Virus record (IMG/VR): IMGVR_UViG_3300020034_000004 | Span: 33,490 to 97,489 of that record | Strand: one strand, 5' to 3' | Length of the DNA: 64,000 nucleotides | From: a virus | Part shown: positions 4,814 through 16,538 of the stretch, piece after piece | How the letters are laid out: each line of letters starts with the position of its first letter | Position numbering within the stretch: the stretch's first letter is position 1 | Program-made: the position numbers and the translations under genes | Notes under the pieces: model-generated | What the model was told of the DNA's origin: nothing | Databases searched by the model: none | The model's input: only the letters and a program-made list of their open reading frames with translations

Positions 4814-4983
4814 AGGCCAGCCTATTATTTATACTCTTGTACTGGAACAGAGTGAGTTGGTGGGGGCGTCTGTCAGCTTTGGATTATGCAGGAAACACGC
4901 CCCTTCAAACCTGCGTTATCGGTACATAGATATGCATCTCGTCTCCGACCTTCACATACAAGACTTCGAAATCTTGCAGCTTG

Positions 4984-5055
4984 TACTCCCAGAGGGAATC
5001 AAACCCTCTCCTAATGCCTGAGAAACATTTATACTTGTCGTTATACTATGGGAGC
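4984..5055 (-). tRNA. tRNA-Glu(CTC)
   Basis: Acceptor GCTCCCA/TGGGAGT; loop TT CTC AG. Confidence 0.8.
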
Positions 5056-5145
5056 TTATTAAATTATTACATAGTTCTTCAATTAACCATTGCGCTACAT
5101 ACGCCTCTCTATCCAATAGATAATCTAGTTCTATTCGAAAACAAG

Positions 5146-5226
5146 TATCGCAGACGGGAATCGAACCCGCAAGCCGAAGCATCTGATTGAAAGTCAGACC
5201 ACCGTAACCAATACAGTACCTGCGAT
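5146..5226 (-). tRNA. tRNA-Glu(TTC) with an extra variable arm
   Basis: TCTGA-CT TTC AA-TCAGA; variable GC-TTCG-GC hairpin. Confidence 0.8.
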
Positions 5227-5353
5227 ATAATGCCAAGCAGTTACAAAAGGCTGCAACGCTTGGCAGCATTATTTCAAAAACTAGATAATTCCGGAGAACA
5301 TCTAGTAACAATTGTGCAAACAAGCTGCACTGCCTTATCGGCGTAATAAGTCT

Positions 5354-5382
5354 ATCTTACCATACCGACGAATGCCTGTCAA
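5354..5382 (-). promoter_or_regulatory. sigma70-type promoter
   Basis: TTGACA-17-TAAGAT with TGn. Confidence 0.8.
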
Positions 5383-5645
5383 GCTATTTTGGCCGGTGCT
5401 AGTTTATTGTTCTTAACTACAACTAGTACTGTCTTATCCTGATACCATTCATTAATGTCTATACCATTATCTAATGCCAAAGAGAATGGACATTCTCTTA
5501 AGTCTTGATAATCTTCTAAACAATTCTTGCTATGAAGAATGTAGACCGTTTCTTCTTTACTTACCGCCTTCGCAAAATGTGCACGAACGTGCCTTTTTAT
5601 TCCAACAATTTTTTCAATTATTGATGCATCTACAATTTCAGTCAT
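5379..5645 (-). CDS. Hypothetical protein
   Basis: 88 aa; start overlaps the upstream stop codon. Confidence 0.7.
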   Translation of the reverse strand: MTEIVDASIIEKIVGIKRHVRAHFAKAVSKEETVYILHSKNCLEDYQDLRECPFSLALDNGIDINEWYQDKTVLVVVKNNKLAPAKIA

Positions 5646-5845
5646 TATTCGTTATCAAGTCTCTTTAGATTAGGATTTTGACCTTGCATAATTCCAACCT
5701 TACCAAGACGAACCTTGATTTGACCGGGTAATGAATTATGCCACTGAAGCATATGTTCCTTTACTGTTCGATTCACGTCTTCATCTGTAGAATATGAACT
5801 CAGTACATAGTCAACAACAATTCCATCTTCATAAATGAACATTAT
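5645..5845 (-). CDS. Hypothetical protein
   Basis: AAGGAG RBS ahead of MFIYEDG; the longer ORF-track start lies inside a tRNA. Confidence 0.55.
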   Translation of the reverse strand: MMFIYEDGIVVDYVLSSYSTDEDVNRTVKEHMLQWHNSLPGQIKVRLGKVGIMQGQNPNLKRLDNE

Positions 5846-5853
5846 GCTCCTTG

Positions 5854-5937
5854 TACGCCAGGTGAGGTTCGAACTCACGTCGGGCTTTCGCCATCAGTTT
5901 AAAAGACTGTTCCCATCGGCCACTAGGGGACTGGCGC
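5854..5937 (-). tRNA. tRNA with TTT (Lys) anticodon on a class II (long variable arm) body
   Basis: CAGT-CT TTT AA-ACTG; variable arm GGC-GAAA-GCC. Confidence 0.75.
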
Positions 5938-5974
5938 ATATTTTGTTTCAATTCACACTTATTACAAAGTTAAG

Positions 5975-6045
5975 TACCCCCGGTTGGAATCGAACCAACG
6001 TCTGCAAAGTAAGAGTTTGCGGCTAATCCCCTCAGCTACGGAGGC
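5975..6045 (-). tRNA. tRNA-Lys(CTT)
   Basis: GCAAA-CT CTT AC-TTTGC. Confidence 0.9.
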
Positions 6046-6145
6046 AGAGAATGAGCTAAACCATAGATTTAGCTCACCCATCAACCTATTCAGTTTCGGA
6101 GTGCTGTCACGCATTTATTCTCCTAGATGGTAAGTCATCACCGTG

Positions 6146-6218
6146 GGTGCTAGACGGGTACTGCCCCCGCTAAAACTTGAGTCACAGTCAAGCACCTCGC
6201 TTCTTGGCCTCTAGCACC
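6146..6218 (-). tRNA. tRNA-His(GTG)
   Basis: CTTGA-CT GTG AC-TCAAG; encoded G-1:C73. Confidence 0.9.
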
Positions 6219-6326
6219 ATGTTGTCAATAGACAAATTATTGCAAGTGCTGGTCTGACTACCTCATTGGGTCATACAGACCGTACGGATTGGTTACCTTA
6301 GCAACACTTGATACCCTGATATAACT

Positions 6327-6355
6327 ACTTTAACACCATACCGGCCGTTTGTCAA
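6327..6355 (-). promoter_or_regulatory. sigma70-type promoter
   Basis: TTGACA-17-TAAAGT with TGn. Confidence 0.75.
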
Positions 6356-6378
6356 GACCTCACATTATGTGGTTTGAT

Positions 6379-7011
6379 TCAGGCGCAGTTCACAGCGTCG
6401 TATCTACGATGCATTGCTGAATCACAAGCTGTCTTATCGTGATACTGTGCCCACCTCAGGTCCCATCTATTCTGATTGAAGATAGAAACACTAGAGCCAC
6501 CAGACCAAATCTTACCACCCAAATGTTGACCCATCAATCTAGTGATGTATGTGGCAATTGCATTAGTACCGGCATAAATGACATCCGGCTGACAAGAGTA
6601 CCTGTAATAATTGTAAAAGATTGTCGGGCCAGTCTCATGCCTTGAACCATCACTTGTCAAGTTTTGATAACCCTGAGCACACCACGGATAATCGTTGGCT
6701 TGATATGCCTGCACTAGCCAGGTTCGTATAATCTGTCTATCTAGATAACCATAATCACCACAAGTAACACCAGTGGCTGGTACATTTGTATAAATAACAC
6801 TAATTGCTGGTGATTCATTCCAGCTATTAGCTGCGGTATGAAAATATGATGGATAGAACGAACCAGTTGAATGGTCTTCTACACATACATATGGACTATA
6901 GAATCTATGATTGTCAATCGGTACCGCCGCGTTTGCTGCTAGAGCGCCTGCCATCCAAAAAGCCATAACTAAACAGGCAAAAACGGTAAGTCTATTAAAA
7001 ATTTTCTTCAA
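6379..7011 (-). CDS. Secreted cysteine-containing protein, possibly a degenerate zincin
   Basis: Signal peptide ending ANA-A; AANSWN and TRLMGQHLG segments. Confidence 0.6.
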   Translation of the reverse strand: MKKIFNRLTVFACLVMAFWMAGALAANAAVPIDNHRFYSPYVCVEDHSTGSFYPSYFHTAANSWNESPAISVIYTNVPATGVTCGDYGYLDRQIIRTWLVQAYQANDYPWCAQGYQNLTSDGSRHETGPTIFYNYYRYSCQPDVIYAGTNAIATYITRLMGQHLGGKIWSGGSSVSIFNQNRWDLRWAQYHDKTACDSAMHRRYDAVNCA

Positions 7012-7055
7012 TTTTCGCTCTCCATATATGAATGTGGGGCCGAAGACCCACCTTG

Positions 7056-7126
7056 AGGGCTGAACGGGTACTGACCCCGCTTCTTCACGTTGGCAACGTG
7101 AGACATTACCTTTATGCTACCAGCCC
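7056..7126 (-). tRNA. tRNA-Gly(GCC)
   Basis: CACG-TT GCC AA-CGTG; U73. Confidence 0.9.
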
Positions 7127-7214
7127 GGAGTAACGAAATTTCCTTCCACTACCCTTATTTAAAGCCCCATATGTTTCGGTCAATGAATCTAACTGCTTAA
7201 GCTGCCGGTATTAA

Positions 7215-7274
7215 TTATAAAATCCAAATCAATAATGCTATGATAAGAAGAACACCAACAATAGTCCAAATCAT
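7215..7274 (-). CDS. 19-aa transmembrane microprotein MIWTIVGVLLIIALLIWIL
   Basis: G-rich RBS, own promoter at 7318-7346, fully hydrophobic sequence. Confidence 0.55.
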   Translation of the reverse strand: MIWTIVGVLLIIALLIWIL

Positions 7275-7317
7275 ATTATTCCCCCACCCACTTTAATCAC
7301 CACCTAATACTTATAAT

Positions 7318-7346
7318 AGAATAACATATAAGAATCTTAGTGTCAA
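7318..7346 (-). promoter_or_regulatory. sigma70-type promoter
   Basis: TTGACA-17-TATTCT with TGn. Confidence 0.65.
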
Positions 7347-7348
7347 TG

Positions 7349-7421
7349 CGCCCCTGACTGGATTCGAACCAGCATTTTTCAGCTTAGAAGGCTGTTGAGT
7401 TATCCCTTACTCTACAGAGGC
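7349..7421 (-). tRNA. tRNA-Arg(TCT)
   Basis: CAGC-CT TCT AA-GCTG. Confidence 0.9.
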
Positions 7422-7423
7422 AG

Positions 7424-7542
7424 ATGTAGCTGGATGGTCTTCGGATGCACTTAGGTCCTACTGGTCTGAATAACTGTGGTTCTTATGTTTCACAGCACTG
7501 ACATTTCTGGCGAATACGCCTGCTCCTAAGGTCCAGCTACAT
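7424..7542 (-). ncRNA. Candidate ~120 nt structured RNA
   Basis: 11-bp closing helix AUGUAGCUGGA/UCCAGCUACAU; inner CUUAGG/CCUAAG and CUGUG/CACAG. Confidence 0.45.
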
Positions 7543-7618
7543 GGTCCGGTATGTATTTTATCTCTCACTTTCCATACCGGCTCTCTATCGGGGGTTTAAT
7601 ACGAAGAGAGCCCCGATG

Positions 7619-7756
7619 TTAATATCTACTTAGTGCTTTATACAGTCTTTCGAATTGTGACTTGCCGTTACGTTGACAAGACGGTGAACAATAGATTTTA
7701 CCGCCCACAATCCATAAATGAGTCTTAATCTGTGTACCGCATTTTGAACAGTTCAA
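7619..7756 (-). CDS. Small zinc-finger protein (45 aa)
   Basis: Manual translation NCSKCG...YCSPSC; TTG start. Confidence 0.5.
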   Translation of the reverse strand: MNCSKCGTQIKTHLWIVGGKIYCSPSCQRNGKSQFERLYKALSRY

Positions 7757-7827
7757 TGTTTTATCTAGTTTTTATGGTCTAGCGACCCCGAGAGTGACAG
7801 CCTCTTGCTTGTCACGATTATATATCT

Positions 7828-7856
7828 ATAGTATCACGTGACAGTCGTCACGTCAA
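7828..7856 (-). promoter_or_regulatory. sigma70-type promoter
   Basis: TTGACG-17-TACTAT with TGn. Confidence 0.7.
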
Positions 7857-7858
7857 GA

Positions 7859-8092
7859 TTATCGAGCAAGATATCTTACTCTGCGCTCAGCTTGTCTTGA
7901 CTCATATGGAGTAGGCAAGCCTTGTGCGCGATATACATCATTTGCTGCTTTACGCTCAGCAGCGTCAGCAATATTTGCTTTCTTTTCAAGCTGTCGCTTT
8001 GCCCATGAGCGGGCGCGGCGGGCTTTAAGATTAACATTGCTCATACGCTTGTGGGCAGGATTGCCCTTGTTGCTTCGTTGTTGGTCGGCCAT
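7859..8092 (-). CDS. Small basic protein
   Basis: AAGGAGG RBS; R/K-rich, 77 aa. Confidence 0.75.
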   Translation of the reverse strand: MADQQRSNKGNPAHKRMSNVNLKARRARSWAKRQLEKKANIADAAERKAANDVYRAQGLPTPYESRQAERRVRYLAR

Positions 8093-8203
8093 CTATTAGA
8101 CACCTCCTTTTCAGGTAGTTACCTAATCATGACCGTACCTCCAAAAGTTCATTTATATTTACCCTCCGATTTTTATCAGTGATTATGTTCAGTGATGATA
8201 TTA

Positions 8204-8584
8204 TCAGTCCCACAGATGGGAAAAGTATTGTACAAAAAGCTGCAGCGCTTTGTTACGCTTTTCCTCAAGTGCTCGTGACCAAGCGTAATAATTATTATCA
8301 CTAAACTTGTAGGTATCCATGCTTTGCAGTTCAGCGTGAGCTTTGAAGCCGTCAATCATCTCGTCAAGAACAACAATCCACTCATCCATATTGACAAACC
8401 CGCCAGGAAAACCAGCGCCAGTCTTAAAACGTTCAAGACCACCGACAATCACAAAAGCGAGGTAGTCATTGAAATTCCAAAAATCATATTCGGAAAATCC
8501 ATTCTCACCACGCTGTTTTAGATGCTCTTTGCGCTCACTTGGCTCAACAAAATCACTTGGGTCTTTGAGACTCATCAACTTCAC
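8204..8584 (-). CDS. Hypothetical phage protein
   Basis: 126 aa; EW..VLDEMI..F...K.LQLF.QYF.HLWD pattern common in phage hypotheticals. Confidence 0.75.
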   Translation of the reverse strand: MKLMSLKDPSDFVEPSERKEHLKQRGENGFSEYDFWNFNDYLAFVIVGGLERFKTGAGFPGGFVNMDEWIVVLDEMIDGFKAHAELQSMDTYKFSDNNYYAWSRALEEKRNKALQLFVQYFSHLWD

Positions 8585-8753
8585 TCCAATCTAGACCCTG
8601 GGCGCACTCAAGGCACGCCGGTATTTGAGTAGTGTTGTCTCCATCGAAACCTTTAATGGTCAACCGCCCGGTTGCAGGCACGTTGTTACATAATGAACAG
8701 AACTCAACACGCTCAATTGCGTTTTGGTCCAAGGTCTCTATACTCACAATCAA
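8553..8753 (-). CDS. Small CxxC/CxxC zinc-binding protein
   Basis: CSLC...CLEC; AAGGT RBS. Confidence 0.55.
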   Translation of the reverse strand: MIVSIETLDQNAIERVEFCSLCNNVPATGRLTIKGFDGDNTTQIPACLECAQGLDWSEVDESQRPK

Positions 8754-8927
8754 CTACCTTTACTCCGAGGTTATCTCCAACACTAAACGTGTCTTGGACT
8801 GCATCCCATGCGTCACCTTCATCGAAGGCATCGATTTCGAGCTTCATTATTACTTCATAAATAAACTTCTTCATGGAGCTTAGTATAGCACTAAAGGATA
8901 TCTAATGCCATACCGGTTTTTCAATGA

Positions 8928-8974
8928 AAAGACCTAAGAGAACTCAAAGCCTTACCCTATTCTCTTAGGTCTTT
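8928..8974. terminator. 15-bp inverted repeat downstream of the tRNA at 8976
   Basis: AAAGACCTAAGAGAA ... TTCTCTTAGGTCTTT. Confidence 0.6.
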
Positions 8975-8975
8975 G

Positions 8976-9052
8976 CGCGAGTGAAGGGATTCGAACCCCC
9001 ATTTTCATTCCGTTATGCACTAATGGTTCGTAGCCACCGCCATTACACCCGC
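8976..9052 (-). tRNA. Non-canonical tRNA-Arg(ACG) with D-loop displaced to the variable region
   Basis: Intact 7-bp acceptor GCGGGTG/CACTCGC-G; U8A9; only 5 nt before the anticodon arm GGTGG-CT ACG AA-CCATT; then AGTGCATAACGGAATGAAAAT; canonical T-arm. Confidence 0.7.
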
Positions 9053-9083
9053 ATTGTAATCGAAACTGTGATATGATGTAGTC

Positions 9084-9605
9084 ATGAATAATAACAGTTC
9101 GAAACATACATGTTTGCAGTGTTTCAACGAAACAATGAATCCTAAATTCTGTTCACGTTCTTGCTCTGCAACCTATAATAATACTATCATGCCCAAGAGG
9201 CAGCGTCAAGTCTGGGTTTTCAATTGTTCTCGATGCAATAAGCCTCAAAAGAAAAAATCTTTATCTGGATTATGTTCAATTTGTTGGAATGATGAACAAG
9301 ATAAAATTGCTGGAGAAATGACTCTTGGAGAATCCATAAAAGAATTTGCAAATCCCAGAAGTCGATACAATACTGTTAGACATCATGGACGAAAACTTTC
9401 CAAAATTTATAATCAATGCCAAGTTTGTGGATATGATAAAGTTCTTCAAGTTTGCCACATCAGACCAGTCTCTTCATTTCCTCTTGATACCCAAATAAAA
9501 GAAATAAACGCACCTGATAATATTGCAATATTATGTCCCAATCATCATTGTGAACTTGACCGAGGATTACTCGCACCCTCTGAGATACCAAATCGAGCGG
9601 CATGA
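9084..9605 (+). CDS. HNH homing endonuclease, opposite strand
   Basis: KFCSRSC zinc knuckle; CQVCG...CHIRP...NIAILCPNHH. Confidence 0.85.
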   Translation: MNNNSSKHTCLQCFNETMNPKFCSRSCSATYNNTIMPKRQRQVWVFNCSRCNKPQKKKSLSGLCSICWNDEQDKIAGEMTLGESIKEFANPRSRYNTVRHHGRKLSKIYNQCQVCGYDKVLQVCHIRPVSSFPLDTQIKEINAPDNIAILCPNHHCELDRGLLAPSEIPNRAA

Positions 9606-9606
9606 G

Positions 9607-9711
9607 ATTGTCTGGTACTCGCCAGAAGCTCTACCATTGAGACTTACTCTGCACTTACCTAGGATGGAGAGCCCGGATTCGAACCGACAACCTCCGGGTT
9701 TCCCAGACAAT
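9607..9711 (-). ncRNA. Circularly permuted tRNA-like RNA (YrlA-like module without a Ro motif)
   Basis: Order is T-arm (GTCGG-TTCGAAT-CCGG), closed acceptor, D-arm (CTC-AATGGTA-GAG); clamped by 9-bp ATTGTCTGG/CCAGACAAT. Confidence 0.6.
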
Positions 9712-9715
9712 AACG

Positions 9716-9786
9716 AGCGGATAACAGGACTCGAACCTGCTTCTCAAGATTGGAAATCTTGGGCACAACCTATATACCATATCCGC
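9716..9786 (-). tRNA. tRNA-Gly(TCC)
   Basis: CAAGA-TT TCC AA-TCTTG; U73. Confidence 0.9.
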
Positions 9787-9844
9787 ATTTGGTTCCGTTG
9801 TTTTGTTAACAGTATGGCGGCTCAACGGTTTCCATAAATTCCGG

Positions 9845-9916
9845 TGCCAGCACAGAGACTTGAACTCTGTTCCTTGGGACTTCACTCCAAAGCATATCCA
9901 TACATGCTCTGCTGAC
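9845..9916 (-). tRNA. tRNA-Phe(GAA)
   Basis: TTGGA-GT GAA GT-CCCAA; acceptor GTCAGCA/TGCTGGC. Confidence 0.8.
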
Positions 9917-9969
9917 AGGCACCAGCGGGTACCGACGCTTCGGTATACGTTCCCTAACTGGTACTAACT

Positions 9970-9998
9970 ACTATAACATGTTTAAGAAGGCTTGTCAA
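9970..9998 (-). promoter_or_regulatory. sigma70-type promoter
   Basis: TTGACA-17-TATAGT with TGn. Confidence 0.75.
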
Positions 9999-10006
9999 GT
10001 ATCAAT

Positions 10007-10531
10007 TTATGTACCGTCGTACCAAGCAATTCCAAGAGCTAAATTGTATACCTGCTCCGAAGTCATATCATTAGCACTTTGTGTTATAGCCAAAACATCA
10101 TCTTCAACCAAAGTAGGATTGAATCTACCCCATCTTCGAATATCTTGAAAGTTACAAGCTAAACGAAGAGCGTGTCTTTTTCTTTTGAAGTCGTTACCCT
10201 CGGTTAGTGCAAATGATTTAATTGTCCTCAAATACCTTTCCCATACACCTGTACCAAGAACATAATTATTTCTAAATGCAGAAATCTTATCCCTTACCGG
10301 CATTTGACTCATCATAGCTTCACAGGCTTGTGGTACCCCAGACTCTACCTGCATCAGCCAAGTTCCAAAATCTACCACAACGGAATCAACTCCGTCAACA
10401 ATGCTTTGCTTAGCATATTTTGCTCTGGCAGTCTTGACCTTTGAAACGACGGTATAGTAGTCATAATCACTATTGTCATGGTGTAAACCATACAATCTAC
10501 TTCCATGAATTGTTTTGAACAATATTTCCAT
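10007..10531 (-). CDS. Pol-beta superfamily nucleotidyltransferase
   Basis: HGSRLYG...SDYD motif; start placed at MEILFK. Confidence 0.85.
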   Translation of the reverse strand: MEILFKTIHGSRLYGLHHDNSDYDYYTVVSKVKTARAKYAKQSIVDGVDSVVVDFGTWLMQVESGVPQACEAMMSQMPVRDKISAFRNNYVLGTGVWERYLRTIKSFALTEGNDFKRKRHALRLACNFQDIRRWGRFNPTLVEDDVLAITQSANDMTSEQVYNLALGIAWYDGT

Positions 10532-10541
10532 ACCGGCCCCC

Positions 10542-11399
10542 CTATCTCTTAGCCAACTTTCCATACTGTCCGTTAGCAGTTGCACACACACCGGTAGTTG
10601 CATAGAATGGGTTACTGGCCGGTACATTAACTAAACTTGGGTAATAATAATGCATATAATACTGCCAAACATATGCCATACGTAAATGTCCACAAGAACT
10701 AGCATGAATCTTATCAGTATTTAGGTCTTTGACTTCATCACCAATAATATTCATAGGAACATACTTAACATATGAAGGATTCGCATTCGCTACCGCCAAA
10801 ATCTTGCTGTTCAATTCAGCCCACTTAGCGTGAGGAGACTTAATCAGACTTGCCAAAAAGACAATGGTGTCTGGACTAGCCAAATGAATACGAGTAACTA
10901 ATAGCTGGATTCTATTCTGTACGTTAGGAATATCATAGTTCTGGGCCAAATCATTCGTACCGGCGTGAATCAAAACATACTTTGGCTTATAAAGAATGAC
11001 TCGATTAGCAACAACGGTACTCAATTCGTCAATTCGCCAACCAGAATGTCCTTCATGATTGTTGTCACCCATTACCTGGAAAGCAGTCTTATGACACTTA
11101 TATGGGAGCCATGGACTAATTGGACATTGACCAACCATATTTGGCTTCTGCATACCGCCCGCGTTGAGTCCCTGAACCAATGGTCCTCGGTAACCGTCAG
11201 TAGCATCTACATACTGGCCGGTAGAATTGGTATGAGGATTATAACCCCATGTGTTTGAATCGCCCAAGGGCATAATATTTGTGTATTCATCAATAAGAGT
11301 CGTCTTGAGTGTAAATGGTCGAGGAGATACCTTCGCTTCGGCTGGTGCAGTTAACACGAACGACATCAACATCAACATAATCGAGAATAGCGTCTTCAT
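10542..11399 (-). CDS. Secreted SGNH/GDSL esterase
   Basis: Signal peptide; GDSNT, GHSG, HAGTND, DKIH blocks. Confidence 0.85.
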   Translation of the reverse strand: MKTLFSIMLMLMSFVLTAPAEAKVSPRPFTLKTTLIDEYTNIMPLGDSNTWGYNPHTNSTGQYVDATDGYRGPLVQGLNAGGMQKPNMVGQCPISPWLPYKCHKTAFQVMGDNNHEGHSGWRIDELSTVVANRVILYKPKYVLIHAGTNDLAQNYDIPNVQNRIQLLVTRIHLASPDTIVFLASLIKSPHAKWAELNSKILAVANANPSYVKYVPMNIIGDEVKDLNTDKIHASSCGHLRMAYVWQYYMHYYYPSLVNVPASNPFYATTGVCATANGQYGKLAKR

Positions 11400-11552
11400 G
11401 ATTCCCCTATCTAAGTATAACTCATTATTGAATGACGTAGAATTCTCCCGCTTTATACGGAGTACTCCAAATTGCAGTTTCAAAGCGTCCAAGATTTTCA
11501 ATGTTAAATCTCTCCAAGGTGACGCCTTTCTAACGACCTAATACAAGCATAC

Positions 11553-11590
11553 AGGTGGGAGCGGTACCTGTCAAGGCCCTACTCCCACCT
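11553..11590 (-). terminator. Hairpin after the Ro60 C-terminal gene
   Basis: AGGTGGGAG/CTCCCACCT inverted repeat. Confidence 0.5.
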
Positions 11591-11596
11591 ATATTA

Positions 11597-12685
11597 TCAG
11601 ATTCTACCGGCTGAGAAATCCGCTAGGACTCTTGGAGCCGCTGCATCAAATCCAACGAAGTCCATCATGATTCCTGGCATCGTTGGGTCCGCAATTGTGA
11701 ACTCAGTACCAGCAAAAGCAACTACAGCTAGTCTTGAGTCGCGACCAGAAGTCTGACGATACTTAACTAGGGACTGTGCTGGCTTCTCTGGCCCGGCCCA
11801 AGTTTCGTTATCGGTAAATACCATGAATGTATCAATGTTCTTGTTCTTCTCACGTGCGTGACGCATTGGCGCAGAACAATCAGTACCGCCTCCACTAAAG
11901 CGGCTAATTTTTTCCTTCACTGTTTCCAAAGAGTCGCGGTCAGAGACATTGACTGTCTTGACTTTCTCCACGTAAGTGCCAAAAGCATTGATTTCAACAT
12001 ATGGCTCTGTACGCAGAGTAACCATTGCCATTACTGCAGCAGCCCCGGCGTAGTCCATACCAACCAGACCAGCAGGAGCACCCCACGTCATGGACGCGGA
12101 AGTGTCAATGCTAATCATTGTGCGCTTGTTGGCAGGTTCAATTGTCTGGAAGGCGCTATAGAAACCATCTTCCAAGGCACCCAGAACTTTAGCGTTAACT
12201 GCCCATTCGCGATGACGAACTCCATAACCTCCCTGCGCGAGCGGACCTTTACCATAAATACCCAATGCGTTTGCGTAGGCAACTGGATGAACTCGACCAT
12301 TGATAATTCTCTCTTCGTTGGCCAGAGCCTGAGCCACATCGCCAGCGAACTTCAAATCATCAAACGCACCAATCTTAGCGAAACGAGTTACATTTCGTAA
12401 AAGTGCAGTTTGTCCCAATGCTCCATCGTAGAATAGAGTCTTCCAGACCTCTGCTTCTTTTAGGAACTGAGTTGGAACTGCTTCCCATGGAAGGTTCTTA
12501 TGAATCCTCAATGCATTCAGAACTTCTGACACATTCTGCGCAGACTGAACCATCTGAAATCCATGCAAAATCTCAGGAGCATCTTTAGAAATCTCTCCCT
12601 TAAGGATAAAGTCTCCCACCCTTGGGTTTATACCCTTCGGATGAGCTAGTCTAAACAAATCGGCGTGTCGCCATGTGTTACTCAT
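11597..12685 (-). CDS. rsr: Ro60/TROVE protein, C-terminal part (rest of HEAT ring plus vWA domain)
   Basis: WRHADLFRLAHPK, LPWE, ALLRN, RVHP, MIDAS DTSASM, GGGTDCSAPM, FTDNETW, MDFVGFD. Confidence 0.92.
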   Translation of the reverse strand: MSNTWRHADLFRLAHPKGINPRVGDFILKGEISKDAPEILHGFQMVQSAQNVSEVLNALRIHKNLPWEAVPTQFLKEAEVWKTLFYDGALGQTALLRNVTRFAKIGAFDDLKFAGDVAQALANEERIINGRVHPVAYANALGIYGKGPLAQGGYGVRHREWAVNAKVLGALEDGFYSAFQTIEPANKRTMISIDTSASMTWGAPAGLVGMDYAGAAAVMAMVTLRTEPYVEINAFGTYVEKVKTVNVSDRDSLETVKEKISRFSGGGTDCSAPMRHAREKNKNIDTFMVFTDNETWAGPEKPAQSLVKYRQTSGRDSRLAVVAFAGTEFTIADPTMPGIMMDFVGFDAAAPRVLADFSAGRI

Positions 12686-12717
12686 ATTTTTCCTTTCGGC
12701 TCACTATCAGTGAGCAT
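12686..12717 (-). promoter_or_regulatory. Leader hairpin and RBS, Y-RNA-mimic operator candidate (copy 2)
   Basis: ATGCTCA-ctgatag-TGAGC-CGAAAGGAAAAAT-ATG. Confidence 0.65.
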
Positions 12718-12844
12718 AATATAATAAATTCTTCACCAGAAATATGCATGTATCCCCATCGGGTAGAGCCATACTTTGATGATTTTGAACAGCAATGCGT
12801 AGATTGGGTACCTAACAATATCTGAATATTGTGAAATCCAATTG

Positions 12845-13396
12845 TTAGACAGTGCGTGACCTATACTTCACGGCTTGATAAGCCAACTGCTCAGGAGTCT
12901 TTGATTCATACCATCCTGCTACCGCTGCCCTCTTGGAACGACCCCAGCCACCAAATGCCTTGACGTAAGATGCGAACTCGAATAGATGAGTAGAAGTACG
13001 AACTACCTTATTTACCGCCGCGCGAGCGTATGCCTTGTCCTGACCTTCAAAGAAGACCAATGCAAGAGTAAAGATAGTAGGTGACTGCTTCGCTGCGCGG
13101 TTGTTGACTGATACGTCAACAACGGTATCGACAACCTCACGCTCATTGATTTTAATCATTTCCTTAACAAAGTCAACATTCTGCTTCGTTAGGTCTGATT
13201 CACCAACGTAATAGGTGCCTGAATCGGTACCCAGAATAAGAAATCGTTCCAACCTGTCCTTATCTGATACCTTGAACACAAACCCACCGGCACTGTTTAA
13301 GACTTCGTCAGTCCTGCCTGGTGTGCGCTCGCTCTGTGGTGTAGAACCCTTACGGTTACGCTGAGTAGCGGCGGTACGTGTTAATGCGTTTGACAT
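12845..13396 (-). CDS. rsr: Ro60/TROVE protein, N-terminal part
   Basis: NSAGGFVF, RLERFLILGT..GTYY, RTSTHLFEF, GWGRSKR, LAYQAVKYRSR. Confidence 0.92.
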   Translation of the reverse strand: MSNALTRTAATQRNRKGSTPQSERTPGRTDEVLNSAGGFVFKVSDKDRLERFLILGTDSGTYYVGESDLTKQNVDFVKEMIKINEREVVDTVVDVSVNNRAAKQSPTIFTLALVFFEGQDKAYARAAVNKVVRTSTHLFEFASYVKAFGGWGRSKRAAVAGWYESKTPEQLAYQAVKYRSRTV

Positions 13397-13432
13397 AATA
13401 TTTCCCTTTCGGCTCATTCGCTATATGAGCAT
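13397..13432 (-). promoter_or_regulatory. Leader hairpin and RBS, Y-RNA-mimic operator candidate (copy 1)
   Basis: ATGCTCA-tatagcgaa-TGAGC-CGAAAGGGAAATATT-ATG. Confidence 0.65.
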
Positions 13433-13448
13433 TAGATAGGTGAGCTAA

Positions 13449-13592
13449 CTATTCATCCAGACTGGCATGAATTACGTTTCTTATATCTTCCTGAAGTTGA
13501 TTGGTTCTCTCATGAGTCCAATACCCGTCGCCTCTTGCGAACGCCTCGACGAATGCGAATCCCAGGGCAACTTCTAAATTTTCTTTGTTCAC
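13449..13592 (-). CDS. 47-aa hypothetical protein starting immediately after tRNA-Ile
   Basis: Manual translation VNKENLEVALGFAFVEAFARGDGYWTHERTNQLQEDIRNVIHASLDE*. Confidence 0.45.
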   Translation of the reverse strand: MNKENLEVALGFAFVEAFARGDGYWTHERTNQLQEDIRNVIHASLDE

Positions 13593-13593
13593 G

Positions 13594-13666
13594 TGCGCCA
13601 GGTCGGGGTCGAACCGACATCAACCTGTATATAAGACAGGGACACTTACCTTTGTGCTACCGGCGC
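13594..13666 (-). tRNA. tRNA-Ile(TAT)
   Basis: CCTGT-CT TAT AT-ACAGG; acceptor GCGCCGG/CTGGCGC-A. Confidence 0.85.
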
Positions 13667-14060
13667 GCTTGAGATATGCCAATGCTTTCTCAAGACCCTC
13701 GATGTTATCACCAAGCATCCCAATTCCAACATTGCAATTCCCACAAAGACCACCACGAAACAATCCAGTCTTATGGTTATGGTCGATTACAATTGCAGGT
13801 CTAAGTTCACATGAGTAGCATAGACCACTCAACGCTTCTTGAACCTGCTCAAGAGGTATGTTGTACTTCTGGGCCTTGTGCTTACCTGTTGCCTTGTAAG
13901 CACTGACTCTATCACGTTGCTTCTGGCGATTGCTACCCTTTGAGTAGTACTCTCGCTGATAAGCATTGTGACACACTTTGCACTTGCCAGTCAACTTACC
14001 TCGCTTGGTAGCGAATTCAGATTCTGGCTTCTCTTTATTACACTCAATACAAATCTTCAT
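13620..14060 (-). CDS. Endonuclease VII-like homing endonuclease
   Basis: CIEC...CKVC; DHNHKTGLFRGGLCGNCNVGIG; 3' end runs into tRNA-Ile. Confidence 0.85.
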   Translation of the reverse strand: MKICIECNKEKPESEFATKRGKLTGKCKVCHNAYQREYYSKGSNRQKQRDRVSAYKATGKHKAQKYNIPLEQVQEALSGLCYSCELRPAIVIDHNHKTGLFRGGLCGNCNVGIGMLGDNIEGLEKALAYLKRAGSTKVSVPVLYTG

Positions 14061-14171
14061 ATTTGGATTATATCAAGGATTATATCCTAAAACCAAAACT
14101 AAAGACCCGATACCGTAGAGTGAGGTTATCACTTATTCGTATCGAGTCCTGTGCACTTTTTACAGTGCCAG

Positions 14172-14262
14172 CGGAAGCGGGGTGGTTTCGAACCCCCAAG
14201 GGCCATAAGCCTCGCTCGCTTTCAAGGCGAGTGCCGTCGTCCAAAATTCGGCTTGCGCTTCC
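14172..14262 (-). tRNA. tRNA-Ser(TGA)
   Basis: CTCGC-CT TGA AA-GCGAG; long variable arm; G73. Confidence 0.9.
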
Positions 14263-14265
14263 ATG

Positions 14266-14330
14266 ACCAGATATGTTGATTGAGAACGTGTTTATTTGTT
14301 TGAAAGATAAACGTACTCATTCGACCCGGT
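14266..14330 (-). ncRNA. Short Y RNA (Ro-binding stem only)
   Basis: 5' CCGGGUCGAAUG...UUAUC...AACAUAUCUGG 3'; contains the GNCGAAN(0-1)G Ro motif. Confidence 0.75.
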
Positions 14331-14406
14331 TGGTGGGCGTGGGGAATTTCGAAATCCCGACCTCTTCGGTGTAAACGAAGCGCTCTTCCTCTGAGACTAC
14401 ACGCCC
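14331..14406 (-). tRNA. tRNA-Val(TAC), CCA encoded
   Basis: TTCG-TT TAC AC-CGAA. Confidence 0.9.
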
Positions 14407-14437
14407 AAGATATTTAATTGTTATCGAATTGTTATTA

Positions 14438-14562
14438 TTGAGGATATGTTATAGAAATCGAGTTTTTAACGCTCTTCCATTAAGCTACAGACCGAAGTCC
14501 AGTGGGATTCGAACCCACATCTCTCTTTTGACATAAGATAATCGAATTCATTCGACCCTCAA
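14438..14562 (-). ncRNA. yrlA: YrlA-type Y RNA with full tRNA-like domain
   Basis: GAGGGUCGAAUG 5' strand; T-arm GUGGG-UUCGAAU-CCCAC; UUCG-closed acceptor; D-arm UAGCUUAAUGGAAGAGC; 3' AACAUAUCCUC. Confidence 0.88.
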
Positions 14563-14582
14563 ACTTATGGTATCTCTAACGG

Positions 14583-14654
14583 CGGCCCCGACGAGAGTTG
14601 AACTCGCTCTAACACCTTGACAGGGTGACGTGCGCACCGGTACACTACGGAACC
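14583..14654 (-). tRNA. tRNA-Asp(GTC)
   Basis: CACC-CT GTC AA-GGTG; G73. Confidence 0.9.
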
Positions 14655-14660
14655 ATTTCA

Positions 14661-14801
14661 TCATTCAGAACATTTATTACCATAATGGTTAAGCACATCC
14701 ATCTTAACAGACAATCTTCGAACTTTCAAATAGTCTCGTTGCTTTTGCCTATTATTTTGTCTATACTTTGCTTGGGACACTTTACGTTTCTCTTCATCCA
14801 T
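14661..14801 (-). pseudogene. Truncated HNH endonuclease N-terminus
   Basis: MDEEKRK...VLNHYGNKCSE* stops where the second Cys of CxxC is expected. Confidence 0.55.
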
Positions 14802-14927
14802 AGTAATATAGTATCATTATATATAATCTCCATCACAGGCCAAATTTGGTGGGACATTATAAAGGGCTGTCCCGGTTACCCTGTTATATCATACCACGTT
14901 TCGAACCGCAATACAATACCTACGTTA

Positions 14928-15049
14928 TGATGGACATGTTATGGTTTCGGAGATTGTCCCGGCTTCCCGTGGGACTATAAAGGACTCGAACCTTCTGCCG
15001 TTTATATACCATTTATATGTGAGATAACCGAAAATCCTTCGGCCCATCA
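14928..15049 (-). ncRNA. Y RNA with T-arm and degenerate tRNA-like domain
   Basis: GAUGGGCCGAAGG...UUAUC...GAAGG-UUCGAGU-CCUUU...AACAUGUCCAUC. Confidence 0.78.
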
Positions 15050-15072
15050 AGCTTGTTGGTTTTTAGACCAAG

Positions 15073-15147
15073 TGGGAAAGGTCGGATTCGAACCGACGCC
15101 CTTTCGCGTATCAGACGATTGCTCCAACCAGACTGAGCTACTCTCCC
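15073..15147 (-). tRNA. tRNA-Ile(GAT)
   Basis: Loop CT GAT AC; canonical D and T arms. Confidence 0.9.
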
Positions 15148-15182
15148 ATTGGGTTGGTTTGAGAAACCATTTCCTAAAACAG

Positions 15183-15255
15183 TGCGGATGGTGGGATTCG
15201 AACCGACGCGCTCTTGTATCCAAAACAAGCAGGCTGCCCTACACCCACAATTCCA
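15183..15255 (-). tRNA. Degenerate tRNA-Pro(TGG)
   Basis: CTTGT-TT TGG AT-ACAAG and T-loop present; acceptor stem pairs poorly. Confidence 0.5.
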
Positions 15256-15267
15256 TATTACCTCAAG

Positions 15268-15339
15268 TCGGGTACCCCAGGGTCGAACTGGGTTTCTTCT
15301 GTTCCCAAAACAGACGGATTACCGTCTTCCTCGTACCCG
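15268..15339 (-). tRNA. tRNA-Pro(TGG)
   Basis: CGGGTAC/GTACCCG-A; TCTGT-TT TGG GA-ACAGA. Confidence 0.9.
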
Positions 15340-15356
15340 AAACCGTTTATTTTTAT

Positions 15357-15790
15357 AGTGGCTAACGTCTTAACGGCTTTCACCGCTCCATCCACTGTTG
15401 TGAGCAACCTACGCTATTGATAAATTTAGAATAAATCATCTACGTTGGCGATTAATCTGCTCTGAACTCACAAGTCACAAAGTAGAATCTGATTCCAAGG
15501 ATTGGCTACCTCGTCGGCTACACGGTACCGTCAGACTATTAACTTTTCTCATCTACTAAGAATAAAGTGAGAGGAAGGGTGCTACCTTCACGCGGGGGGA
15601 GACCTTAGCATGTAAGATTACCCCACGACCATTCGTTTGCCGCTAAGCACAGATTCAACAAGTCGCTAAACTTGCCTCCTAGTCTCACCGCATTAGCCTA
15701 ACTAGGGTACTTCTGCCGAACGTGCATTACGAGCTACGTCTCCGACACTCGCATTTCTGCCACTCTCAGACGAAGGTGCTACCTTCGTCT
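15357..15790 (-). ncRNA. Candidate large (~430 nt) structured ncRNA
   Basis: No minus-strand ORF of 60 aa or more between tRNA-Trp and tRNA-Pro; two GAAGG-UAGCA-CCUUC hairpins; long-range GAGAG/CUCUC and AGUGG/CCACU helices. Confidence 0.55.
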
Positions 15791-15793
15791 TTG

Positions 15794-15864
15794 CACCCGA
15801 CGAGAGATTCGAACTCTCACGCTAGAGTTTTGGAGGCTCTGCGACTCAACCTACGCTGTCGGAT
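15794..15864 (-). tRNA. tRNA-Trp(CCA)
   Basis: AGAGC-CT CCA AA-ACTCT; G73. Confidence 0.85.
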
Positions 15865-15888
15865 ATAGGTCTTTCGACCACATTTACT

Positions 15889-15918
15889 ACTCTATCACAT
15901 CTTCATGCATCATGTCAA
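15889..15918 (-). promoter_or_regulatory. sigma70-type promoter
   Basis: TTGACA-18-TAGAGT with TGn. Confidence 0.65.
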
Positions 15919-16026
15919 GATTCATATCTTCCATAATCTCTTGGTATTCTTCTGTCCATACCCCGGAAATCAGATTCTCACCAAGAACCATTACTACGTC
16001 TATATTAGCATCTGCTGTTGGCATTG

Positions 16027-16335
16027 TCAAGACCCTTCAAGCAAGTCAATCAAATCTGACGTAGAATAATCGTTACCTAATTGTGATTCTAAATTATTTT
16101 TAATGTCTGTTTCATCCATATCACCGGGTACTTCAATTTCATATTCATACCCAGTTGAATTGGACGGAGGGGTGGAATGTTTTCCATTGTGGTTACACTC
16201 GTGGTTGAAGTATACAACGACACGAGCAAATCCGTCAACAACTTCTGTCACTTCAAATTCAGGACGACTCGTATGAGTCGTAGATTTGGCTATGTCAGCC
16301 TTTCTGACATAAGGTGAAAGCGTACCTTTCCACAT
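16027..16335 (-). CDS. Hypothetical protein
   Basis: 102 aa; ATG directly after tRNA-Gln. Confidence 0.65.
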   Translation of the reverse strand: MWKGTLSPYVRKADIAKSTTHTSRPEFEVTEVVDGFARVVVYFNHECNHNGKHSTPPSNSTGYEYEIEVPGDMDETDIKNNLESQLGNDYSTSDLIDLLEGS

Positions 16336-16336
16336 G

Positions 16337-16410
16337 CTGCTCGCCTAGGATTCGAACCTAGAAAACCTTGGGTCAGAGCCAAGTGGGTCTACCAATTCCC
16401 CCAACAAGCA
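16337..16410 (-). tRNA. tRNA-Gln(CTG)
   Basis: CTTGG-CT CTG AC-CCAAG; U1:A72, G73. Confidence 0.9.
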
Positions 16411-16538
16411 AGGAGGTCTCATAACGGTTTTCATATCGTCACCACCCAGCCAAATGGAAGGATGTGCTAATTACACCGATGAAACCAAAGCACGGTGGCC
16501 TGCTGTCTTCCGACCCTGAACCTTTTCCGTACTTTTAT

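What the first reader, a model, noticed from the sequence alone, without database searches (positions are those of the whole stretch)
11597..13432. Naturally split Ro60 whose halves each carry a Y-RNA-mimic hairpin over the RBS
Seen: the TROVE gene is broken inside its most conserved motif, ...YQAVKYRSR-TV* then MS-NTWRHADLFRLAHPK, with no residues lost. The 159-nt spacer has several in-frame stops. Both ORFs begin M-S-N and share the leader ATGCTCA-(7-9 nt loop)-TGAGC-CGAAAGGRAAA-ATG. That leader contains GCCGAAAG opposite AUG, the same strand pair as the nearby Y RNA at 14928-15049 (GGGC-CGAA opposite CAU-GUCC), but joined as a permuted hairpin. Established: bacterial Ro (Rsr) binds Y RNA through a GNCGAAN(0-1)G helix, and the KYxxRxxWxHxD region belongs to the RNA-binding HEAT ring. 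Inference: a two-subunit Ro60 that represses translation of both its mRNAs, keeping them stoichiometric and titrated by free Y RNA. A split ring could also open to load RNA.
Basis: partly seen in the sequence, partly recalled or inferred. Interest (0 to 1): 0.92.

Follow-up and report, generated by a model that had tools for sequence, protein, structure and literature searches.

The report
Phage Ro60 split by homing endonuclease
A soil phage's Ro60 RNA-binding protein gene was cut into two working genes by a selfish endonuclease gene that has since decayed. Each half, like many intact phage Ro60 genes, is preceded by a conserved RNA hairpin that copies the Ro-binding site of Y RNA, so Ro60 probably controls its own translation.

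Summary
Ro60 is split exactly between R and N of KYRxR|NGW. Half 1 is 12845-13396(-) and half 2 is 11597-12685(-). No residue is lost, and a 159-nt spacer carries in-frame stops. Both halves have the leader AUGCUCA-loop-UGAGCCGAAAGG.

The spacer is the deletion remnant of an HNH/EndoVII-type homing endonuclease gene. A related split locus (L188) still holds the full 183-aa gene at the same site.

The split is not a one-off. At least 53 diverged half-1 proteins in public metagenomes all end in KYRSR[ST][VIAF]. They interleave with intact alleles on a tree, and one is 100% identical over 172 aa to an intact gene. This fits a mobile insertion.

The leader hairpin is a conserved motif that matches no Rfam 15 family. 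It lies 3-22 nt upstream of the start codon in about a third of the phage Ro60 loci sampled and shows strong covariation. Its invariant U...G-N-C-G matches the GNCGAA Ro-recognition motif of Y RNAs. Its flanks match the local Y RNAs.

Self-repression by Ro60 is well supported by comparison but unproven. A split made so the ring can open is not supported. An earlier scan note (e1-5799829) reports a Ro60-like gene in another genome cut by an endonuclease at a different site.

The parts
12845..13396 (-). Ro60 half 1 (183 aa; N-terminal TROVE/HEAT part; ends KYRSR-TV-stop)
   Evidence: Pfam TROVE 2.9e-12. Aligns to Rsr 2nvo 16-179. At least 53 diverged homologues have the same end.
13404..13436 (-). 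Leader 1 hairpin: 5' arm GCUCA 13430-13426, loop 13425-13417, 3' arm UGAGC 13416-13412, then CGAAAGG 13411-13405. The start codon is at 13396.
   Evidence: Covariance model R1 scores 25.3 bits. MFE fold. In L172 the closing pair is changed on both sides, although everything upstream differs.
12686..12844 (-). 159-nt spacer, the deletion remnant of an HNH/EndoVII-type homing endonuclease gene. The whole insertion relative to intact genes is 12680-12853 (174 nt).
   Evidence: The out-of-frame 46-aa reading 12681-12818 matches the L188 endonuclease at residues 62-85 (E 2e-8) and 166-183 (E 1e-4). The L188 ORF hits phrog_3322, phrog_1035 and phrog_3118 endonucleases. In-frame stops.
12691..12721 (-). 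Leader 2 hairpin: 5' arm GCUCA 12715-12711, loop 12710-12704, 3' arm UGAGC 12703-12699, then CGAAAGG 12698-12692. The start codon is at 12685. It lies inside the former 3' coding end of the endonuclease gene.
   Evidence: R1 scores 28.9 bits, the best hit in the window. The same element precedes half 2 in L188 (28.4 bits) and L172 (28.9 bits). Endonuclease homologues that are not inside Ro60 lack it.
11597..12685 (-). Ro60 half 2 (362 aa; rest of the TROVE ring plus the vWA domain; starts MS-NTWRHAD)
   Evidence: Pfam vWA_Ro60 1.5e-48 and TROVE 7e-16. Aligns to 2nvo 181-533. Stand-alone homologues of 359-368 aa.
14925..15052 (-). Y-like RNA 1, with terminal stem UGAUGGGC/GUCCAUCA, a 5' CGAAG motif and a T-arm-like GGUUCGAGUCC
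   Evidence: Conserved upstream of Ro60 in 5 other phage loci, with 11 compensatory pairs. No Rfam hit at E<=1.
14436..14572 (-). Y-like RNA 2 (5' GAGGGUCGAAUG, 3' AACAUAUCCUC, T-arm-like)
   Evidence: Rfam YrlA 28.9 bits, E 0.003, below the gathering score. Homologues lie near Ro60 in many loci.

Best explanation
This is a Ro60 'gene in pieces' made by a homing endonuclease, carrying two copies of a Ro60-specific leader operator.

Shown:
1. An HNH/EndoVII-type free-standing homing endonuclease gene was inserted precisely between the R and N codons of the KYRxR|NGW motif. It supplied a stop two codons after R. At its own 3' end it supplied a ribosome-binding region and an ATG two codons before N.
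2. In this phage the endonuclease gene later lost its N-terminal part and its catalytic core. A 159-nt spacer remains, and it still carries the translation start region of half 2.
3. Both halves are intact here and in many diverged relatives.

Inferred:
4. The two polypeptides reassemble into a normal Ro60 ring with its vWA domain and bind the neighbouring Y-like RNAs.
5. The hairpin in front of each half is a member of a leader motif conserved before many intact phage Ro60 genes. The motif is xAU, a 5-7 bp helix, a loop, the return strand ending G-N, then CG(A/G)A. It reproduces, as a closed hairpin, the Ro-binding helix and flanking internal-loop bases of Y RNA.
6. Free Ro60 binds this hairpin 3-22 nt upstream of the AUG and blocks ribosome entry. 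Y RNA competes for Ro60. Ro60 output is thereby matched to Y RNA.
7. The endonuclease cassette carries its own copy of the operator, so half 2 is under the same control as half 1.
For: Split point and completeness.

Endonuclease origin:
- L188 has half 1 ending KYRSRTI-stop, then a 183-aa endonuclease ORF (phrog_3322 at 1.7e-24, phrog_1035 EndoVII at 8.9e-21, phrog_3118 HNH at 6.8e-17), then half 2.
- The window spacer matches two segments of that ORF.
- It is the best tblastn hit for that ORF in the 97-kb record.
- Homologues of this endonuclease sit directly downstream of intact Ro60 in L105, L017/L100/L178 and L151.

Mobility:
- 53 split half-1 proteins interleave with intact genes on a tree. 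Well-supported branches force at least 10 gains or losses.
- P0029 (split) is 100% identical over 172 aa to intact L109.
- The window's half 1 is closer to an intact protein (80%) than to the other split ones in the search list (at most 73%).

Function kept:
- Half-1 proteins that are 48-73% identical all keep an open frame and the same end.
- Eight stand-alone half-2 proteins were found.
- The window keeps 89 of 98 columns that are at least 90% conserved among 63 intact phage Ro60s. The range for intact genes is 84-98.
- Complex prediction supports binding, with score 0.91 against a best control of 0.00. That mark was reached by 58 of 80 solved complexes and 2 of 110 mismatched pairs. The runs agree in at least 92% of contacts and the partner's pLDDT is at least 86. 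Ro60 monomers are solved, so this pass may simply reflect likeness to those structures.

Leader motif:
- The strict pattern occurs in the 130-nt zone before the Ro60 N-terminus in 52 of 157 distinct loci, against 2.5 expected. The binomial p is 2e-52, but the pattern was defined post hoc.
- The MAFFT alignment of 60 leaders has invariant U6, G26, G28, C30 and G31.
- RNAalifold predicts the same 5 pairs independently.
- Pair types: GC43/AU13/UA4, CG42/UA18, GC19/AU18/UA13/CG9. The covariation score is 0.576 against 0.228 for shuffles, with 0 of 500 shuffles as high.
- Model R1 hits only the two leaders in the 64-kb window; the next best hit is 12.6 bits.
- In 0.92 Mb of other loci, nearly all hits with E<0.01 lie on the Ro60 strand just before its start, including loci not in the seed.
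- CGAA stays next to the helix even where a separate Shine-Dalgarno sequence follows further down, as in L003, L016, L195 and L216.

Mimicry:
- The local Y RNAs have UGGGC-CGAA and AACAU-GUCCA. One homologue has UGAGC-CGAA, identical to the window's leader arm.

Specificity of leader 2: endonuclease homologues outside Ro60 end in F.xLC... and lack the hairpin.
Against: - No experiment or RNA data exist. No RNA run holds the stretch.
- GAAAGGA is also a good Shine-Dalgarno match for actinobacterial 16S rRNA, so part of the CGAAAGG conservation may reflect only the ribosome-binding site.
- The hairpin set used for the covariation count was chosen by a pairing filter, so the percentage of cells paired is circular. 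The pair-type diversity and the model's positional specificity are not circular.
- DNA was available for only three split loci, from two lineages. Conservation of leader 2 rests on these.
- About two thirds of phage Ro60 loci, and nearly all of the 80 cellular loci (2 weak hits), lack a recognisable motif. If this is an operator, it is clade-specific.
- In leader 2 the arms also encode Cys-Ser and Ser-Arg-Lys-Glu of the endonuclease, so some conservation between the window and L188 could be constraint on that protein.
- The window and L172 differ at too few sites for a dN/dS test.
Confidence: 0.6

Rival explanations
1. The hairpin is a Ro60-gene-specific mRNA element that Ro60 does not bind. 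It could be a 5' stabiliser or a processing signal that frees the mRNA from the surrounding tRNA/Y RNA transcripts. It could also be the site of another phage protein. On this reading the resemblance to Y RNA comes from common descent or chance.
For: The gene sits inside a dense tRNA array, and in L172 a tRNA ends 10 nt before the hairpin. GAAAGG can be explained as a Shine-Dalgarno sequence. No binding data exist.
Against: A stabiliser needs only a helix. Here U6, G26, G28, C30 and G31 are invariant while the other helix positions covary. That invariance pattern is the GNCG of the Y RNA motif. The flanks xAU and CGAA match the internal-loop bases of the local Y RNAs. The motif occurs nowhere else in the window.
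Confidence: 0.27
2. The split gene is a dead or dying pseudogene. The insertion destroyed Ro60, and the open frames are only recent leftovers.
For: All 240 related viral and metagenome loci fetched, except L172 and L188, are intact. The window keeps 89 of 98 conserved columns, towards the low end of the intact range.
Against: At least 53 half-1 clusters, diverged to 48-73% identity, all keep the frame and the same end. Stand-alone half-2 proteins of full length exist. The endonuclease has decayed while both halves and the half-2 start region survived. The complex model passes.
Confidence: 0.05
3. The spacer is removed or bypassed by a self-splicing intron, translational bypass or readthrough, so that one full-length Ro60 is made.
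For: The spacer is in frame, because the 174-nt insertion is a multiple of 3. The insertion lies in the most conserved motif, as phage introns often do.
Against: Four stops lie in the spacer. No intron family or any other Rfam family matches at E<=1. The boundaries lack the exon-terminal U and intron-terminal G of group I introns and the GUGYG...AY of group II introns (sequence). At 159-174 nt it is shorter than known self-splicing introns (my own knowledge). In L188 the insert is a protein-coding endonuclease gene with no intron around it, and its spacer length is not in frame. Every half 2 has its own SD and ATG.
Confidence: 0.03
4. The ring was split because a two-piece ring can open to load RNA, and the split was selected for that reason.
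For: The split is stably inherited in many lineages.
Against: The break coincides with an endonuclease gene insertion. Identical N-terminal halves occur both split and unsplit. Other Ro60 genes tolerate 4- or 11-aa inserts at the same site, so it is simply a permissive loop. No data bear on ring opening.
Confidence: 0.05

Closest known systems
Aeromonas phage Aeh1 nrdA split by the HNH homing endonuclease gene mobE. Also T4 gene 39/60 split by mobA, and gene 43 of phages 25 and 44RR split by a seg gene or by an untranslated intercistronic sequence (review PMC2988022).
   Same: A free-standing homing endonuclease gene is inserted in a functionally critical, conserved part of a phage gene that is contiguous in relatives. 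The result is two separately translated polypeptides that must reassemble. In phage 44RR, as in this window, an endonuclease-less spacer separates the pieces.
   Different: The host gene is an RNA-binding Ro60, not a DNA-metabolism enzyme. The endonuclease is caught here in a decayed state, with a full copy in a relative. The cassette's 3' end carries a copy of the host gene's own conserved leader hairpin. Reassembly and activity are untested.
Bacterial and phage Ro60 (Rsr) with YrlA/YrlB Y RNAs (Chen et al. 2014, PMC4201824)
   Same: TROVE plus vWA protein. Y-like RNAs with a tRNA-like arm lie within 2 kb on the same strand. A GNCGAAN0-1G motif is present.
   Different: The protein is in two pieces. 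A third kind of RNA carrying the motif exists: a 30-nt hairpin in the mRNA leader, with the two strands joined in the opposite order and no tRNA-like domain. It was not described in that paper, and no Rfam 15 family matched it in the searched span.
Autogenous translational operators that mimic the protein's main RNA ligand. Examples are ribosomal protein operons, the threonyl-tRNA synthetase operator and the phage MS2 coat protein/replicase hairpin (my own knowledge, not checked here).
   Same: A small hairpin that copies the recognition features of the primary RNA ligand sits on or next to the ribosome-binding site of the protein's own mRNA.
   Different: Binding and repression are not shown here. 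The operator is duplicated on a mobile cassette so that it serves two halves of one protein.

Membership tests
Ro60 / Rsr (TROVE + vWA) | TROVE HEAT-repeat domain and Ro60-type vWA domain, collinear with solved Ro60 | tested here: met
   Pfam TROVE on both halves and vWA_Ro60 at 1.5e-48. Contiguous alignment to 2nvo 16-179 and 181-533.
Ro60 / Rsr (TROVE + vWA) | Single polypeptide | tested here: not met
   Two ORFs separated by 159 nt with stops.
Ro60 / Rsr (TROVE + vWA) | Binds Y RNA | not testable with these tools
   Two Y-like RNAs lie 1.0-1.7 kb upstream on the same strand. No binding data exist.
Gene in pieces made by a free-standing homing endonuclease (Aeh1 nrdA/mobE type) | The insertion splits a gene that is contiguous in relatives | tested here: met
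   Nearly all related loci are intact. One has an identical N-terminal half but is unsplit.
Gene in pieces made by a free-standing homing endonuclease (Aeh1 nrdA/mobE type) | Endonuclease ORF between the pieces | tested here: met
   Full ORF in L188. The window holds only a remnant lacking the catalytic core.
Gene in pieces made by a free-standing homing endonuclease (Aeh1 nrdA/mobE type) | Both pieces keep open frames and their own start signals | tested here: met
Gene in pieces made by a free-standing homing endonuclease (Aeh1 nrdA/mobE type) | The pieces reassemble into an active protein; the endonuclease cleaves the empty allele | not testable with these tools
   Only a structure-model pass is available (0.91 against control 0.00), together with a patchy phylogenetic distribution.
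Self-splicing intron (group I or II) | Ribozyme core and canonical boundaries | tested here: not met
   No Rfam intron hit at E<=1 over 11400-16500. The boundaries are non-canonical.
Y RNA (YrlA/YrlB) | GNCGAAN0-1G motif next to a helix | tested here: met
   Both leaders read GCCGAAAG. G-N-C-G is invariant in 60 leaders.
Y RNA (YrlA/YrlB) | Long stem formed by the 5' and 3' ends, large internal loop or tRNA-like domain, 80-130 nt | tested here: not met
   The leader element is a hairpin of about 30 nt with the strands in reversed order and no tRNA-like part. It imitates one module and is not a Y RNA.
Autogenous translational operator | Resembles the protein's RNA ligand and lies within the ribosome-binding region | tested here: met
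   The helix ends 3-22 nt before the start codon in 57 leaders. Likeness to Y RNA stems.
Autogenous translational operator | Bound by its own protein, with repression | not testable with these tools
   No experiment and no RNA data.

The most novel reading that the evidence does not exclude
Phage Ro60 sets its own level by binding a mini Y RNA mimic in its mRNA leader, in competition with real Y RNAs. A homing endonuclease that invades the Ro60 gene carries a copy of this operator at its 3' end. The severed downstream half therefore stays under the same control, which lowers the cost of the invasion enough for the split to persist after the endonuclease decays.
Probability: 0.5. Interest if true: 0.8.

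Novelty: new variant of a known kind. Interest (0 to 1): 0.72.

Why it matters
**Ro60 regulation.** Ro60 and Y RNAs are studied from bacteria to human autoimmunity, but how Ro60 levels are matched to Y RNA is not known. A short, covarying leader hairpin with the Y RNA recognition bases gives a directly testable autoregulation model. It also offers a minimal 30-nt ligand for structural work on bacterial-type Ro60.

**Split Ro60.** The split shows that the Ro60 ring tolerates a break, and also 4- to 11-residue inserts, at the KYRxR|NGW loop. This is useful for engineering and for asking how the ring assembles.

**Homing endonucleases.** The locus captures two stages in the life of one element in one gene family: a full endonuclease gene in L188 and a decayed remnant here. 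It also suggests that a selfish element can carry its host gene's own operator.

Tried and rejected
The DNA around the roughly 50 Logan/ENA split half-1 proteins could therefore not be fetched, and leader 2 and the spacers could be compared in only three loci.
- Megablast of the region against GenBank phages gave no match.
- The viral-contig scans returned only intact genes.
- No RNA holder is listed among the sequencing runs, so nothing can be said about expression, transcript ends or splicing.
- Pfam found nothing for the L188 endonuclease. PHROGs gave only E 0.057, to a family of unknown function, for the 46-aa remnant. The remnant claim rests on the pairwise and multiple alignments.
- The Rfam YrlA model does not extend to the GNCGAA end of the RNAs, so it could not be used to compare consensus stems.
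- A loose hairpin pattern (at least 4 bp plus GNCG) has too high a background, with 0.79 hits expected per 130 nt, and was dropped.
- The sigma-70 promoter scan found nothing in the spacer. This scan may not cover the promoter types of these phages and their likely actinobacterial hosts.
- The careful tree search did not finish, so the quick IQ-TREE tree was used.
- The window and L172 differ at only about 15 coding sites by my reading. That is too few for dN/dS.
- The shared M-S-N start was rejected as meaningful.
- The weak R1 hit at 21934-21998(+) (12.6 bits) was not followed up.
Full report
**What is in the window.**
The window is part of a 97.5-kb IMG/VR virus record. Its closest isolated relatives are the roughly 130-kb Streptomyces phages of the Blueeyedbeauty/Gilson/Comrade type, which are 64-70% identical in the Ro60 N-terminal half. 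All of these carry an intact 'Ro-like RNA binding protein'.

Two ORFs on the minus strand together make one Ro60.
- Half 1 (12845-13396) hits Pfam TROVE. It aligns to D. radiodurans Rsr (2nvo) residues 16-179 and to frog Ro60 up to residue 174.
- Half 2 (11597-12685) hits TROVE and vWA_Ro60. It aligns to 2nvo 181-533 and to human/frog Ro60 from residue 175.

The break falls between R and N of KYRxR|NGW, and only TV and MS are added. The 159-nt spacer is in frame but holds four further stops. The same junction is seen in a 99%-identical JGI contig (L172) and in contigs from two soil-metagenome studies.

**What the spacer is.**
A second, diverged split locus (L188) has the following layout:
- Half 1 ends in KYRSRTI-stop.
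- A 183-aa ORF follows. It matches phage endonuclease families phrog_3322 (1.7e-24), phrog_1035 endonuclease VII (8.9e-21) and phrog_3118 HNH (6.8e-17).
- Three bases after that ORF's stop codon, half 2 begins with MKATWTHRD.

An out-of-frame 46-aa reading of the window's spacer matches this endonuclease in two blocks. These are residues 62-85 (E 2e-8) and the last 18 residues (E 1e-4). The N-terminal 60 residues and the roughly 80-residue catalytic core are gone. The spacer is therefore a deletion remnant of a homing endonuclease gene.

The 97-kb record holds no intact paralogue. Homologues of the endonuclease (34-37% identity) lie immediately downstream of intact Ro60 genes in several other phages. 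The family is thus habitually associated with Ro60.

**How widespread and how mobile the split is.**
A search restricted to proteins of 100-321 aa found about 60 half-1-like proteins, 48-73% identical to the window's. They are 174-186 aa long and lie on contigs of up to 138 kb. Fifty-three of them end in KYRSR followed by [ST][VIAF] and a stop. Stand-alone half-2 proteins of 359-368 aa also exist, some on contigs of the same length as half-1 hits. Their heads vary: MTNTTW, MSSNVW, MGTW, MTVTKRKNTW.

On a tree of the N-terminal 180 residues, split and intact genes interleave, and well-supported branches force at least 10 changes of state. P0029 (split) is 100% identical over 172 residues to the intact gene of L109. 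The window's half 1 is closer to an intact protein (80%) than to the other split ones in the search list (at most 73%). This pattern is what a homing element produces. It could also come from repeated precise loss.

The site itself is permissive. Streptomyces BK-type phages carry a 4-residue insert (KYRSR-[KT]FGG-NTW) and L151 an 11-residue insert at exactly this point.

**Are the halves functional?**
- Long-term preservation of both frames in many lineages argues for function.
- The window keeps 89 of 98 columns that are at least 90% conserved among 63 intact phage Ro60s (intact range 84-98). Two of its nine differences are at the junction.
- A complex prediction of the two halves supports binding, with score 0.91 against a best control of 0.00. 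That mark was reached by 58 of 80 solved complexes and 2 of 110 mismatched pairs. The runs agree in at least 92% of contacts and the partner's pLDDT is at least 86. Ro60 monomer structures are solved, so the pass may only reflect that likeness.

**The leader hairpin.**
The 12-mer UGAGCCGAAAGG occurs only in front of the two halves in the whole record. The comparison with other loci is the important part.
- Intact Ro60 genes in many phages have the same architecture directly before their start codon. It reads xAU, a 5-7 bp helix, a 3-11 nt loop, the return strand ending G-N, then CG(A/G)A.
- A strict form of the pattern is present in the 130-nt zone upstream of the N-terminus in 52 of 157 distinct loci, against 2.5 expected from the density in the rest of the loci. 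The binomial p is 2e-52, but the pattern was defined after seeing some of the cases.
- In a plain MAFFT alignment of 60 leaders, the invariant columns are the U before the helix, two G's in the return strand and the CG after it.
- RNAalifold finds the same five pairs unaided.
- Three pairs switch between GC, AU, UA and CG (43/13/4; 42/18; 19/18/13/9). The covariation score is 0.576 against 0.228 in shuffles and at most 0.155 when partners are slid.
- A covariance model of the motif finds only the two leaders in the 64-kb window, at 28.9 and 25.3 bits, with the next hit at 12.6.
- In 0.92 Mb of other phage and metagenome loci, almost all hits with E<0.01 lie on the Ro60 strand just before its start. 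This includes loci outside the seed. L172 and L188 each have two hits, one per half.
- Eighty cellular Ro60 loci give only two weak hits, so the motif belongs to a phage clade.
- Between the window and L172, homology begins abruptly inside leader 1. Everything upstream differs, yet L172 has its own hairpin with a compensated closing pair.
- The helix ends 3-22 nt before the AUG in all cases.

**Likeness to Y RNA.**
Chen et al. (PMC4201824) defined GNCGAAN0-1G near the 5' end of YrlA/YrlB RNAs. It overlaps the sequences needed for Rsr binding. They also noted that Ro60 mainly contacts this strand.

The invariance pattern in the leaders (G, variable N that covaries with its partner, C, G, then mostly AA) is that same motif.

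The window's Y-like RNA 1 (14925-15052) has no Rfam hit. It is nevertheless conserved upstream of Ro60 in five other phages, with 11 compensated pairs. Its terminal stem reads UGGGC/GUCCA, flanked by CGA[AC] on the 5' strand and AACAU on the 3' strand. One homologue has UGAGC-CGAA, identical to the window's leader arm. Other Y candidates read GGGUCGGA / AACAUAUCC.

The leader is thus the Y RNA's Ro-binding helix with both flanking internal-loop segments. It is closed by a loop where the Y RNA has its termini and is open towards the mRNA.

Part of the CGAAAGG conservation could be Shine-Dalgarno. However, in several loci CGAA stays at the helix while a separate SD lies further down.

**Leader 2 is not a by-product of coding.**
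In the window and in L188 the hairpin lies in the last codons of the endonuclease gene (…LCSLIV(K)SRKE). Homologous endonucleases that are not inside Ro60 keep the protein-level F.xLC but end differently and have no hairpin. The intragenic cassette has therefore acquired, or been shaped into, a Ro60-type leader. Its GCUC/GAGC helix is of the type found in leader 1 of the window's nearest relatives (L172, L201, L236).

**Most likely mechanism.**
- Shown: an endonuclease insertion split the gene; the endonuclease gene then decayed; both halves are retained; a conserved, structured, Ro60-specific leader with the Y RNA motif precedes each half.
- Inferred: the halves reassemble. Free Ro60 binds the leader and occludes the ribosome-binding site, and Y RNA competes for Ro60. 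Because both halves carry the operator, they are co-regulated.

The rival that the hairpin is only a stabiliser or processing signal cannot be excluded without binding data. It does not explain the Y-like invariant bases. The pseudogene, intron/bypass and 'ring made to open' readings are each poorly supported (see rivals).

**Comparison and novelty.**
The split belongs to the known class of phage genes in pieces made by free-standing homing endonucleases. Examples are Aeh1 nrdA/mobE, T4 39/60 with mobA, and gene 43 of phages 25 and 44RR, the last of which has an endonuclease-less spacer (PMC2988022).

Three things are new here. Ro60 is the host gene. The family of split alleles is large. The cassette carries a copy of the host gene's leader.

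The leader motif matched no Rfam 15 family at E<=1 in the searched span. A full-text search found no report of Ro60 autoregulation through its own mRNA. That search is limited to open-access papers.

Earlier scan notes:
- e1-5799829 describes a Ro60-like DUF2828 gene cut by an endonuclease at another site in another genome.
- e1-6055986 is a second reading of this same stretch.

**Limits.**
There are no expression or binding data. The motif statistics were partly defined post hoc. The loci are phylogenetically related. The complex model may echo solved Ro60 structures.

Noticed in passing
window 13620-14060 (-) and 13593-13666 (-): A 146-aa endonuclease VII/HNH-type ORF (Pfam Endonuclease_7 at 1.3e-16) lies about 220 nt upstream of Ro60 half 1. 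Its last codons overlap the tRNA-Ile(UAU) gene. It looks like a free-standing homing endonuclease in the tRNA array. It shares phrog_1035 with the endonuclease that split Ro60.
   Followed up: partly
L105-L138 (Streptomyces BK-type phages) and L151, at the Ro60 motif: Intact Ro60 genes carry a 4-residue (KYRSR-[KT]FGG-NTW) or 11-residue insert exactly at the split point. L105 and L151 also have the endonuclease homologue just downstream. These inserts may be scars of re-fusion, or alleles immune to cleavage.
   Followed up: partly
window 13412-13436 versus L172 2964-2993: The window and L172 are about 99% identical from the 3' arm of the leader 1 hairpin onward and unrelated upstream of it. 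A mosaic (recombination) boundary therefore lies inside the hairpin, yet both versions keep a hairpin.
   Followed up: partly
window 15564-15789 (-); L172 557-777: Match to the manA RNA motif (RF01745): 42 bits, E 1.5e-8, below the gathering score of 55.2. It lies inside the tRNA array and is conserved in L172.
   Followed up: no
window 236-613 (-): Phage-encoded tmRNA (96.5 bits) at the start of an array of about 21 minus-strand tRNA genes (734-16410).
   Followed up: no
window 14173-14262 (-): tRNA-like element that hits the tRNA-Sec model at 34 bits and was missed by ARAGORN. By eye it looks like a long-variable-arm tRNA with a UGA (Ser) anticodon loop.
   Followed up: no
window 9084-9605 (+), 10007-10627 (-), 10542-11501 (-): An HNH_2 endonuclease ORF, an RlaP-like (RNA repair pathway) nucleotidyltransferase and a GDSL lipase-like ORF flank the Ro60 locus.
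   Followed up: no
window 21934-21998 (+): Weak hit of the leader model (12.6 bits, E 0.54), with AUGUCUG and CGGGCCGGA separated by 41 nt. It could be chance or another Ro-site-like element.
   Followed up: no
L013, L085, L089, L049 upstream regions: Weak leader-model hits with long inserts lie 0.2-1.9 kb upstream of Ro60 on the same strand. They may be the 3' strand of one Y-like RNA followed by the 5' strand of the next.
   Followed up: no
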